From assembly GCF_057098645.1 (NCBI RefSeq), contig NZ_CM169472.1: a stretch of 64,000 bases of DNA. One strand, given 5' to 3'. Position numbers: made by a program. Each line of letters opens with the position of its first letter. Position 1 is the stretch's first letter. This document shows positions 9,001 to 12,000 of this stretch, piece by piece.

Positions 9001-12000
9001 GTGTGGAGCAACGGCATCAAAAAGTTTATGGCTGAAAAGGGGATTCAGCCGGACCTGATCTACACCTCGGAAGAAGCCGATGCGCCACAGTATATGGAAC
9101 ATCTGGGGATCGAAACGGTGCTGGTAGATCCGAAACGTACCTTTATGAGTATCAGCGGTGCACAGATCCGCGAAAACCCGTTCCGCTACTGGGAATATAT
9201 TCCTACGGAAGTGAAGCCGTTCTTTGTGCGTACCGTGGCGATCCTTGGCGGCGAGTCGAGCGGTAAATCCACCCTGGTAAACAAACTTGCCAATATCTTC
9301 AACACCACCAGTGCGTGGGAATATGGCCGCGATTATGTCTTTTCACACCTCGGCGGTGATGAGATCGCATTGCAGTATTCTGACTACGATAAAATCGCAC
9401 TGGGCCACGCTCAATACATTGATTTTGCGGTGAAATATGCCAATAAAGTGGCATTTATCGATACCGATTTTGTCACCACTCAGGCGTTCTGCAAAAAGTA
9501 CGAGGGACGCGAGCATCCGTTCGTGCAGGCGCTGATTGATGAATACCGTTTTGATCTGGTGATCCTGCTGGAGAACAACACGCCGTGGGTGGCGGATGGT
9601 TTACGCAGCCTCGGCAGTTCGGTGGATCGCAAAGAGTTCCAGAACTTGCTGGTGGAGATGCTCGAAGAGAACAATATCGAATTTGTGCGGGTTGAAGAGG
9701 AAGATTACGACAGCCGTTTCCTGCGCTGCGTGGAGCTGGTGCGGGAGATGATGGGGGAGCAGAGATAACCGTGACGAAACTGCTCAAAGGCGAGGTATAA
9801 AATGAGTTTTTTTGATGAGTTGAAAACCTCTCTGGAAGAGACTGTCGAGATTAGAAAGAACCTGTACGGGTGACCCGCTACGAAATTGCGGATGCTAAGG
9901 CTATTCGTGAGCAACTTCATACTCCAACCGACCGGTTGCGTAGCCAGAATGCAATCAAATCTGACAGTTCGCTTCGGCGCGCGCTTTGGTGTATTTACCG
10001 GAGTAAATCAGCGTGCCGTGGAAAATTATGCGCAGCGCTTCTGCTGATTTGCGTACCTTCGCAGATGATAAGTCCAGCACTGGCGCGCTGCGCGTAATAC
10101 TCCGCCATCATGTCAATCGCAACGTCAACCGCACCGGCGCGGGAACGCGTCATCGGTGGCAGTACAATACGGTTTATTAATGGCAACGCATTCAGCGCAT
10201 ATTTAGCAAATTACGTAATGGGTTCCTCGCGCGATTATTTATACAGTTCGGCACTCATGGTGACGGTATTGCCCATGCGAGCGCTGGTAATTTTGTATTC
10301 AGAGGCGTTCATCTCTTTCGCTTTCTGCGCAATAACCGCTTCAGCGGAATCCAGTGTTGTACCGGTTGCTGTCACGCTTTGCGCCGATGCGTTAAACGCC
10401 GCGACAGAGAAAAGAGAAGCCGTAAAAATTGCGATGATCGTTTTCATGTTTATATTCCAGAGTGTCTTAATTGTTTGGCGTTTATTAACGCGATGGGGAG
10501 AGAATACGCCTGCTGCCTGATAACATAAATGATACAAATGGCAATAGACTATTCTGTTTTTGTTAATAATCAGACGCCGGACGTTCCGACGCCTGTCGAT
10601 CGCATCAGGCAACAAAGTTGTCCTTTAGCGCCTTGAGACCATCCCGATAGATGCCGGTAAACAGCGCCTCGGCCTCTTCGTTCGTCACATTCACCGGGGT
10701 GAATTCACCGAACCATTCCACACGGGAAACCTGGCTGTCGGCGGTTTCATGAACGGTAATGGTGGAGAGGTAATCCACCACCGGGAACGGAGCCTGAATA
10801 ATGGAATAGGTATAACTGCGTTGACGGTTATCAAACGCTTCCAGACGTTCAACCACAGTGCCGCCGTCAGAGGTTGTCAGCGAACGAACGCGACCGCCTT
10901 CTGTCACTACGCTTTTCGGGATGAACGGCAGCCAGTCTGGCAGCGCATCAAAGCCGCCCATCAATTGCCATACGGCGTCGGCAGAAGCCGGAATTTCGAT
11001 CGATACAGTTGTTTTAGCCATGATAATTTTCTCTTAATTTATAGGGTTACATTGTCAGGGTGTCGACGACGCCGCCATCGACGCGCAGGGCTGCCCCTGT
11101 GGTTGCCGAGGAAAGCGGTGACGCGAGATAAACCGCCAGATTCGCCACTTCTTCCACATCTGCTGCACGCTGGATGATGGAACTCGGACGCGAGGTTTTA
11201 ACAAACTCATCGGCCTGTTCACGCGCACTGCGTCCCGATTGTGCAGCGGCATCCGCCAGCATCTCTTTCAGGCCATCGGTAAAGGTTGGCCCTGGCAGAA
11301 TGGCGTTGACGGTCACACCGGTCCCCGCCAGTCGTTTCGCCAGACCATGAGAAACCGCCAGATTCGCGGCTTTGGTGACGCCGTAGTTGATCATGTCGCC
11401 AGGGATTGCCACGCCGGATTCGGACGAGACAAAGATAATCCGCCCCCAGCCCTGTTCCGTCATGCCTGGCGCATAGTGACGCGCCAGACGAACGCCGGAG
11501 AGGACGTTGACGTTATAGAAGTGCATCCACTCATCATCCGGAACGCTAAAGAAATCTTTATCGTTAAAAATGCCCAGATTATTGACCAGCACATCAGCCG
11601 TTGGGACTGCAGCGAGCAGCGCAGCCACGCCGTCTTCGGTGCTGAGATCCGCCACCACGCCGCGCAGTGACGCTGTGGGAGTTTGTGCCGCAATCGCAGC
11701 CATGGCGTCATCAACGCCGCTCTGTTTACGGCCGACGACAACCACCGTTGCGCCTGCTTTTGCCAGTCCGGCGGCGATACCCTGCCCAATGCCGGAGGTT
11801 GAGCCGCTGACCACCGCGACTTTACCTGTCAGATCCAGTTTCATCGTTTTCTCACCAGGTTGATTAACGGGTCGGCAGCGGAGCGTTTTCCGCAACCAGA
11901 TTTTGACGGCACATTTCTGCCCAGAATTCAGCCGGAACAGGCGCATTCAGTGCAGCCAGATCTTCTGCCATACGGCCAGGACGGCTGGAGCCAGGAATAA

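What the first reader, a model, noticed from the sequence alone, without database searches (positions are those of the whole stretch)
9769..10234. Decayed gene remnants at the nadR-proximal edge of the islet: antitoxin-like N-terminus and an OYE-family oxidoreductase stub
Right after the nadR stop there is a 23-codon ORF (9802-9873, MSFFDELKTSLEETVEIRKNLYG) that continues in a shifted frame as TRYEIADAKAIREQLH.... This resembles the N-terminus of XRE/HigA-type antitoxins but no intact HTH domain follows. On the opposite strand, 9995-10186 encodes only the first 40 or so conserved residues of an Old Yellow Enzyme family flavin oxidoreductase (...PPMTRSRAGAVDV..MAEYYAQRASAGLIICEGTQIS) before diverging and stopping. 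Two truncated genes back to back suggest a deletion or recombination scar marking the islet boundary.
Basis: partly seen in the sequence, partly recalled or inferred. Interest (0 to 1): 0.4.

Follow-up and report, generated by a model that had tools for sequence, protein, structure and literature searches.

The report
Dead toxin-antitoxin and reductase gene scraps
The stretch after nadR is a pile of broken gene pieces (a toxin-antitoxin pair and a flavin reductase) left where a 4-kb gene islet landed inside the antitoxin gene; it is ordinary gene decay that public annotation already flags.

Summary
Window 9769-10234, on an E. coli O145:H28-type chromosome, is a stack of pseudogene fragments.

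- **Toxin tail (9772-9800):** the last 8-9 codons of a HigB2/RelE-type toxin gene.
- **nadS 5' remnant (9802-9916):** codons 1-42 of the partner HigA2-type antitoxin gene nadS. A 10-bp deletion shifts the frame, which gives the 23-codon ORF.
- **Islet junction (9916|9917):** the left edge of a ~4-kb islet that replaced 112 bp of nadS. The nadS 3' tail lies at 13959-13993, beside ettA.
- **OYE remnant (9972-10216, minus strand):** the islet's last gene, an OYE alkene reductase, survives only as codons 1-58 plus 287-311. It has a 686-bp internal deletion, a dead start codon (ATG>ACG), a stop at codon 2, and a further deletion of 1 kb or more.

Intact references exist. The full toxin-antitoxin pair sits at nadR-ettA in 674 of 5426 complete E. 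coli genomes. An intact 365-aa OYE closes the same six-gene module in E. coli E69 and Yokenella.

RefSeq already marks both remnants as pseudogenes in sister strains, and nothing indicates a function.

The parts
9769..9771 (.). 3-nt filler (CCG) at the junction of the ~395-bp deletion that removed the toxin-antitoxin promoter region and toxin codons 1 to ~101. It lies directly after the nadR stop (9766-9768).
   Evidence: Alignment with the intact locus L003. K-12 has the identical junction.
9772..9800 (+). 3' tail of the HigB2/RelE-type toxin gene: ...TKLLKGEV plus the stop at 9798-9800.
   Evidence: Matches L003 2501-2529, the end of the annotated RelE/ParE family toxin (...KKLTKLLKGEI*). 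The intact toxin hits Pfam PF06296 (E 2e-8) and PDB HigB-2 (E 8e-16).
9802..9916 (+). 5' remnant of the antitoxin gene nadS (codons 1-42 of 94). A 10-bp deletion between 9853 and 9854 shifts the frame.
   Evidence: Matches L003 2531-2582 and 2593-2655. NadS NF041265 positions 1-46 of 94, E 2.4e-13, 50.2 bits against a cut-off of 60. PGAP labels the same sequence in sister strains 'NadS family protein, frameshifted, incomplete'.
9802..9873 (+). 23-codon ORF created by the frameshift. Its first 17 residues are native NadS apart from one substitution (A14T).
   Evidence: The start codon is ATA plus a 1-nt deletion in strain PRO_A, and TTG in FDAARGOS_1281.
9917..9971 (.). Left-end spacer of the islet, origin unknown. 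Every nadR-ettA islet variant examined carries it.
   Evidence: Present next to the nadS remnant in L007, L008 and L009. No match in E69 or the other genera.
9972..10042 (-). OYE 3' piece (last base of codon 287 to first base of codon 311, ...EALRIIFHGTLIYSGKYTKARAE), out of frame with the 5' piece. Its low-coordinate end (9972-9976, CGAAG) is the junction of a further 1.0-1.6-kb deletion.
   Evidence: 98.6% identical to E69 L010 9092-9162. Junction mapped against the longer islets L007 and L008.
10043..10216 (-). OYE 5' piece (codons 1-58). The start codon ATG is now ACG (10214-10216) and codon 2 TTA is now TAA (10211-10213). The 686-bp internal deletion junction lies at 10042|10043.
   Evidence: Colinear with E69 L010 8232-8405. 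Changed codons against E69: 0 synonymous and 8 nonsynonymous.
9995..10186 (-).
   Evidence: PGAP marks 10040-10153 as an incomplete pseudogene in the identical strain RM9872 and as 'alkene reductase, incomplete' in PRO_A.
10235..10447 (-). Intact DUF1471 (YdgH/BhsA/McbA family) gene directly upstream of the OYE remnant. It is the partner of OYE in a conserved two-gene pair.
9917..13958 (.). The islet itself: OYE remnant, DUF1471, SRPBCC, SDR, aldo/keto reductase and a divergent LysR-type regulator.
13959..13993 (+). 3' tail of nadS (last ~16 codons, with 2-nt and 11-nt deletions) at the ettA-proximal end of the islet.
   Evidence: Matches L003 2768-2815.

Best explanation
The interval is a non-functional, multi-layered scar. 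It does nothing; what can be explained is how it formed.

**Step 1 (shown).** The ancestral nadR-ettA spacer carried a higB2/higA2-type toxin-antitoxin operon, with a RelE-fold toxin followed by the XRE-HTH antitoxin NadS. This state still exists in 674 of 5426 complete E. coli genomes.

**Step 2 (shown; timing inferred).** A ~395-bp deletion removed the operon's upstream region and all but the last 8-9 toxin codons. K-12 has the same junction, so the deletion predates the islet. Toxin-first loss is also the only viable order of decay for such a pair.

**Step 3 (shown).** A ~4-kb module (LysR-type regulator, then AKR-SDR-SRPBCC-DUF1471-OYE) replaced 112 bp in the middle of the orphan nadS. This left nadS codons 1-42 beside nadR and the last ~16 codons beside ettA. 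The insertion mechanism is unknown: no recombinase gene and no terminal repeats were found.

**Step 4 (shown).** The module's last gene, OYE, was inactivated. The changes are ATG>ACG, a stop at codon 2, a 686-bp out-of-frame internal deletion (codons 59-287, which by the standard NemA/OYE alignment should hold the catalytic His/Asn(His)/Tyr residues; not checked here), and loss of the 3' end from about codon 334.

**Step 5 (shown).** A 10-bp deletion frameshifted the nadS remnant. It is absent from the GNAT-type islet L009, so it came after the insertion.

**Step 6 (shown).** A 1.0-1.6-kb deletion with CGAA(G) microhomology fused OYE codon 311 to the islet's left-end spacer. This gives the short form seen in the window and in most islet-bearing strains.

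The short ORFs at 9802-9873 and 9995-10186 are by-products of these events.
For: Locus states and annotations.

Junction mapping by alignment.

Family assignment.

Intact OYE references: E. coli E69 has the same six-gene module at 97.8% nucleotide identity over 3884 bp. Yokenella also has the whole module, and Citrobacter and Kluyvera have the DUF1471-OYE pair. No complete E. coli genome has an intact copy (0 of 5426 at >=80% coverage).

Relaxed selection: the five intact islet genes show 66 synonymous and 5 nonsynonymous changed codons against E69. The OYE 5' piece shows 0 and 8 (Fisher p = 4.9e-8; 8 of 8 nonsynonymous fits neutrality, P ~0.13).

The nadS-remnant ORF start is not conserved among islet strains.

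Population counts.

No Rfam match and no promoter or terminator signal above shuffled background.
Against: - The order of events rests on about eight aligned loci and shared junctions, not on a phylogeny of all ~460 islet genomes.
- The origin of the 55-nt spacer 9917-9971 and the mechanism of islet insertion are unknown.
- K-12's own truncated 55-aa NadS is translated (PIRT-seq, PMC12350097). The window keeps the same ribosome-binding region and ATG, so translation of the 23-codon ORF cannot be excluded.
- Whether the short form arose from a cargo-bearing islet or from an E69-like one cannot be told.
Confidence: 0.93

Rival explanations
1. The nadS N-terminal ORF (23 codons here, 55 in K-12) is kept as a functional small protein. 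One possible role is an orphan neutraliser ('anti-addiction' peptide) against HigB2-like toxins on plasmids or elsewhere in the genome.
For: The K-12 nadS remnant is translated (PMC12350097). In V. cholerae HigA2 the disordered N-terminal segment neutralises the toxin, and a peptide of residues 3-22 suffices in vitro (PMC5416850). NadS aligns with HigA-2 only over the HTH domain (E 2e-6). NadS-plus-toxin pairs occur on some E. coli plasmids (28 places on plasmids, e.g. H55). The window ORF keeps the ATG and 17 near-native residues.
Against: Sister islet strains have lost or changed the start codon (ATA with a 1-nt deletion; TTG). The remnant carries different lesions in different lineages: a 10-bp deletion in most, none in L009, and REP replacement in K-12. 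The toxin-antitoxin promoter region is deleted. The N-terminal region was not aligned to HigA2 by phmmer.
Confidence: 0.04
2. The OYE stub is a resident chromosomal gene that was cut by the arriving islet, so the islet boundary would lie between the two remnants.
For: The two fragments lie back to back, and no mobility gene marks the islet.
Against: OYE is the last gene of the same colinear module in E. coli E69, E. whittamii and Yokenella, at three different chromosomal sites. The window is 97.8% identical to E69 straight through DUF1471 into OYE codon 58. Strains without the islet have no OYE sequence between nadR and ettA. The nadS 3' tail lies beyond the LysR gene.
Confidence: 0.01
3. The interval encodes a regulatory RNA, or a nadR terminator or attenuator, rather than being inert.
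For: It lies directly after the nadR stop. It contains an imperfect inverted repeat (10020-10038 / 10085-10103, 19 nt, 84% complementary).
Against: No Rfam family at E<=1. No terminator-like site was found, against 1.5 expected by shuffling. The inverted repeat is made of two OYE coding segments brought together by the 686-bp deletion. The sequence varies by indels among strains.
Confidence: 0.02

Closest known systems
HigB2-HigA2-type toxin-antitoxin module. In E. coli this is the pair PGAP annotates as 'RelE/ParE family toxin' plus 'NadS family protein' (NF041265). In adherent-invasive E. coli and CFT073 it was described as parE-3/yiaG-2 (TA30) in the nadR-ettA spacer (PMC7232551).
   Same: Same chromosomal site and the same toxin-then-antitoxin gene order. 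The remnant is 89.7% identical in DNA to an intact copy. The intact toxin matches V. cholerae HigB-2 (E 8e-16) and intact NadS matches HigA-2 (E 2e-6).
   Different: Only the last 8-9 toxin codons and nadS codons 1-42 (frameshifted), plus a ~16-codon tail 4 kb away, survive. There is no HTH, no promoter region and no toxin.
K-12 'nadS' (WP_000007444.1, 55 aa), recently reported as a translated small ORF (PIRT-seq, PMC12350097).
   Same: Same toxin deletion junction, same start codon and same N-terminal sequence.
   Different: K-12 lost the 3' half of nadS to REP-containing sequence after about codon 37 and has no 10-bp deletion. The window lost it to the islet at codon 42 and is frameshifted at codon 18.
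Old Yellow Enzyme / NemA-type alkene reductases (Pfam PF00724, NCBIfam NF007899). Specifically, the 365-aa OYE that follows a DUF1471 gene in E. coli E69, Yokenella, Citrobacter amalonaticus, Kluyvera and Pseudocitrobacter.
   Same: Orthologous at the DNA level (95-99% identity to E69 over the surviving 245 nt), with the same upstream DUF1471 partner.
   Different: Only 83 of 365 codons survive, in two frames, with a dead start codon and a stop at codon 2. The central part of the barrel is deleted.
Small replacement islets in conserved E. coli intergenic spacers.
   Same: Present in about 8.5% of complete genomes and absent in the rest. It sits at a fixed site and is flanked by the two halves of the disrupted resident gene.
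   Different: No integrase, transposase, tRNA or terminal repeats were detected. The same module sits at other sites in E69 (next to yhiN-pit) and E. whittamii (next to cspA-yiaG).

Membership tests
NadS / HigA2-type antitoxin (NF041265) | Whole-protein score at or above the NCBIfam cut-off (60 bits) over the 94-position profile. | tested here: not met
   The frame-corrected remnant scores 50.2 bits and covers positions 1-46 only. Intact NadS from L003 scores 182.6 bits over 1-94.
NadS / HigA2-type antitoxin (NF041265) | C-terminal XRE-type HTH (Pfam HTH_3). | tested here: not met
   No Pfam hit for the remnant. Intact NadS has HTH_3 at residues 35-79. The DNA for codons 43-79 is replaced by the islet.
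NadS / HigA2-type antitoxin (NF041265) | Partner RelE/HigB2-type toxin gene directly upstream. | tested here: not met
   Only 29 nt of the toxin gene remain (9772-9800).
NadS / HigA2-type antitoxin (NF041265) | Descent from nadS: orthologous position and nucleotide homology to intact nadS. | tested here: met
   89.7% identity over 155 nt at the same site after nadR (E 9e-57). PGAP makes the same pseudogene call in sister strains.
Old Yellow Enzyme family (PF00724) | Pfam gathering score reached. | tested here: met
   32.1 bits against 27, but only profile positions 12-65 of 342.
Old Yellow Enzyme family (PF00724) | Complete ~340-365-aa TIM barrel in one reading frame with a start codon. | tested here: not met
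   Codons 59-287 and 312-365 are absent. The two pieces are out of frame (686 = 3x228+2). ATG is now ACG and codon 2 is TAA.
Old Yellow Enzyme family (PF00724) | Catalytic His/His(Asn) pair and proton-donor Tyr in the central part of the barrel. | tested here: inconclusive
   Codons 59-287 are shown to be deleted. That these catalytic residues fall in that span (around positions 180-190 by the standard NemA/OYE alignment) rests on general knowledge of the family. The individual residues were not located in the E69 sequence here.
Integrative genomic island (integrase-mediated) | Integrase or transposase gene, and direct repeats (att sites) at both ends. | tested here: not met
   No such gene is annotated in the islet. 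No terminal repeat stands out from many chance-level repeats.
Insertion or replacement within a resident gene | Both halves of the disrupted gene flank the insert in the right order and orientation. | tested here: met
   nadS 5' part at 9802-9916 and 3' tail at 13959-13993. 112 bp of nadS are missing between them.

The most novel reading that the evidence does not exclude
The N-terminal NadS peptide survives because it is useful. It is expressed as a 55-aa product in K-12 and may be made as a 23-aa product here. By analogy with HigA2, whose disordered N-terminal segment alone neutralises HigB2, it could act as a chromosomal anti-addiction peptide against plasmid- or prophage-borne HigB2-like toxins. 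If so, the most common state of the nadR-ettA spacer would be a domesticated antitoxin fragment rather than junk.
Probability: 0.04. Interest if true: 0.45.

Novelty: already known. Interest (0 to 1): 0.1.

Why it matters
It matters little beyond bookkeeping.

The locus is a clean, fully resolvable example of how a chromosomal toxin-antitoxin pair decays. The toxin goes first, and the orphan antitoxin is then eroded in different ways in different lineages. It also shows how an acquired metabolic islet sheds one gene while its neighbours stay under purifying selection.

Two practical points follow:
- The 'nadS' small protein recently reported as a new K-12 gene is the truncated N-terminus of this antitoxin.
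- The published statement that K-12 lacks the nadR-ettA toxin-antitoxin genes should read 'retains remnants of them'.

Tried and rejected
1. **Protein search with the stub.** A search with the 71-aa OYE stub returned only short fragments of 125 aa or less, apparently because candidates are picked by shared words. No full-length reference came from it. The genome-contig scan with the neighbouring DUF1471 protein supplied E69 and the other genera instead.

2. **A possible third OYE piece at 9917-9971.** On the minus strand this reads SDLIAFWLRN, which resembles OYE ...ADLIGFGRPF. I rejected it for three reasons. My by-eye comparison gave only about 16 of 27 matching bases. The E69 alignment stops at 9972. 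In the longer islets the same spacer lies beyond the variable segment, while the true OYE ...DLIGFGRP sequence lies on the other side of it.

3. **Terminal repeats or att sites for the islet.** Nothing stood out from the many chance-level repeats. A short CAGTCCGC motif occurs near both ends in longer variants, but I judged it chance-level.

4. **Mobile-cassette idea for the variable segment of longer islets.** Exact-protein look-ups of the DUF2846 and GNAT genes found them only in this same locus. DNA searches found one place per genome. The idea is not supported.

5. **RNA and signal scans.** Rfam and promoter/terminator scans of 9500-10700 found nothing.

Full report
**Source and setting.** The window is 100% identical over 9600-10700 to E. 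coli O145:H28 chromosomes such as RM9872. The gene order is radA, nadR (stop at 9766-9768), the interval in question, then on the minus strand DUF1471 (10235-10447), SRPBCC, SDR and aldo/keto reductase. A divergent LysR-type regulator follows, then ettA. K-12 has only about 300 bp between nadR and ettA. The five-gene block is therefore an islet, present in 458-461 of 5426 complete E. coli genomes.

**Check of the observation.**
- The frame-corrected + strand product matches NCBIfam NadS (NF041265) at positions 1-46 of 94, E 2.4e-13.
- The minus-strand ORF matches NemA (NF007899) at positions 17-66 of 365, E 7e-13, and passes the Pfam PF00724 gathering score.
- RefSeq/PGAP already labels the same sequences in sister strains as 'NadS family protein, frameshifted, incomplete' and 'alkene reductase, incomplete'.
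- In RM9872 itself only the OYE piece is flagged, as an incomplete hypothetical protein.

**The toxin-antitoxin remnant.** In 674 of 5426 complete genomes the nadR-ettA spacer holds an intact operon. It consists of a 110-aa RelE/ParE-family toxin followed 1 nt later by the 94-aa NadS.
- The toxin matches Pfam PF06296 and V. cholerae HigB-2 (E 8e-16).
- NadS has an HTH_3 domain at residues 35-79 and matches HigA-2 (E 2e-6).
- The pair was described in adherent-invasive E. coli and CFT073 as parE-3/yiaG-2 (TA30), and was said to be absent from K-12 (PMC7232551).

Alignment with such a locus (L003) gives the following map:
- Window 9772-9800 is the last 8-9 toxin codons plus the stop.
- 9802-9853 and 9854-9916 are nadS codons 1-42, with a 10-bp deletion between them.
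- The ~395 bp holding the operon's upstream region and toxin codons 1 to ~101 are missing, replaced by 3 nt.

K-12 has the same toxin deletion junction, so that event is old and shared. K-12 then lost the 3' half of nadS to REP-containing sequence instead of to an islet. About 55 genomes keep a full-length orphan nadS (729 with the 3' half minus 674 with the full pair).

**The islet junctions.** Homology to nadS stops at 9916 and resumes at 13959-13993, which holds the last ~16 codons with small deletions and lies beside ettA. The islet (9917-13958) therefore replaced 112 bp of nadS.

**The OYE remnant.** A scan of species-representative genomes with the neighbouring DUF1471 protein found the following:
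- E. coli E69 and Yokenella regensburgei carry the same six-gene module with an intact 365-aa OYE as its last gene.
- Citrobacter amalonaticus, several Kluyvera and a Pseudocitrobacter carry the DUF1471-OYE pair alone.

Against E69, the window is colinear at 97.8% identity from the LysR terminator to OYE codon 58 (window 13926 down to 10043). It then lacks 686 bp (codons 59-287) and continues for 71 nt (10042 down to 9972, codons 287-311) at 98.6% identity.

The sequence after '...EGTQIS' is thus not divergence. It is the C-terminal third (EALRIIFHGTLIYSGKYTKARAE) read out of frame.

The true start codon is mutated (ATG>ACG, 10214-10216) and codon 2 is a stop (TTA>TAA) in all nadR-ettA islets examined. 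No complete E. coli genome has an intact copy.

Selection has lapsed on this gene. The five intact islet genes differ from E69 by 66 synonymous and 5 nonsynonymous codons. The OYE 5' piece differs by 0 and 8 (Fisher p = 4.9e-8; compatible with neutrality).

**The last deletion.** Rarer islet variants keep more sequence between the OYE 3' piece and the nadS remnant. There the OYE continues to about codon 330-334 (...GFGRP) and is followed by one of three segments:
- a winged-HTH gene plus a TauE/SafE gene (21 genomes);
- a GNAT gene (20 genomes);
- a DUF2846 gene (1 genome).

After the segment comes the 55-nt spacer that the window has at 9917-9971. The window form lacks 1.0-1.6 kb relative to these variants, with CGAA(G) microhomology at 9972-9976.

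The GNAT variant has no 10-bp deletion in its nadS remnant. That frameshift therefore arose after the islet arrived.

**Function.**
- No Rfam match and no promoter or terminator signal above background.
- The 23-codon ORF's start is ATA with a 1-nt deletion in one sister strain and TTG in another.
- The 63-codon ORF evolves neutrally.
- The one caveat is that K-12's 55-aa NadS fragment is translated (PMC12350097), and in HigA2 the N-terminal segment alone neutralises the toxin (PMC5416850). A residual neutraliser role cannot be strictly excluded. I rate it at about 4%.

**Verdict.** This is a real but ordinary pseudogene scar, produced by at least six separable events and already largely captured by public annotation.

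Noticed in passing
L007 6492-6522 / 7435-7465; L008 6486-6519 / 8000-8033; L009 ~3507 / ~4159 (longer variants of the same islet; the site is deleted in the window at 9972-9976): Between the OYE 3' piece and the nadS remnant, different E. coli lineages carry three unrelated gene segments: wHTH plus TauE/SafE, GNAT, and DUF2846. All three share the same right boundary (AACTTCCG...), and two share the same left boundary. 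The boundaries form a 31-34-nt imperfect inverted repeat with core AAGCGGAAGTT / AACTTCCGCTT. E69 shares an 18-mer of the right arm (L010 9783-9800). The cause of this local gene-content variation is unexplained.
   Followed up: partly
L002 2534-2701 (E. coli K-12, nadR-ettA spacer): The K-12 gene that PGAP calls nadS (55 aa) was reported in 2025 as a newly detected translated small protein. It is itself a truncated antitoxin: NadS profile positions 1-46 only, toxin deleted upstream, and the 3' half replaced by REP-like sequence. The paper that described the nadR-ettA toxin-antitoxin pair stated that K-12 lacks these genes.
   Followed up: partly
L022 8232-8687 (Escherichia whittamii): The same six-gene module sits next to cspA-yiaG in E. 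whittamii. Its OYE gene has an independent, in-frame internal deletion (codons ~43-253, leaving a 151-aa ORF). In E. coli E69 the module sits next to yhiN and a pit phosphate transporter with OYE intact. The module therefore occupies three different sites in Escherichia, and OYE has been lost twice independently.
   Followed up: partly
L011 (JAIJJM010000574.1, 2144 bp, labelled 'MAG: Collinsella sp.'): This contig is E. coli DNA: nadR 3' end, nadS and OYE remnants, DUF1471, SRPBCC and SDR at 97-100% amino-acid identity. It is almost certainly a binning contaminant in an actinobacterial MAG.
   Followed up: no
window 4027-4290 (-): An 87-aa helix-turn-helix gene lies between deoD and lplA. Other strains (e.g. 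CFT073) carry the HipA-family toxin gene yjjJ at this position. The HTH-only form is the majority state (4057 of 5426 genomes cover >=80% of the query). It may be another alternative or decayed toxin-antitoxin-type locus about 5 kb from the finding.
   Followed up: partly
window 10020-10038 and 10085-10103: A 19-nt, 84% complementary inverted repeat straddles the OYE internal-deletion junction. It is formed by two OYE coding segments (EYYAQR and ALRIIF regions) that are 686 bp further apart in the intact gene. It is probably coincidental.
   Followed up: no
L005 9301-10466 (E. coli FDAARGOS_1281): In this islet-bearing strain an IS3-family element (IS1397) is annotated just beyond the LysR-type gene, in the position where the other islet loci have ettA. 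Only its first ~1.2 kb lie within the stretch fetched.
   Followed up: no
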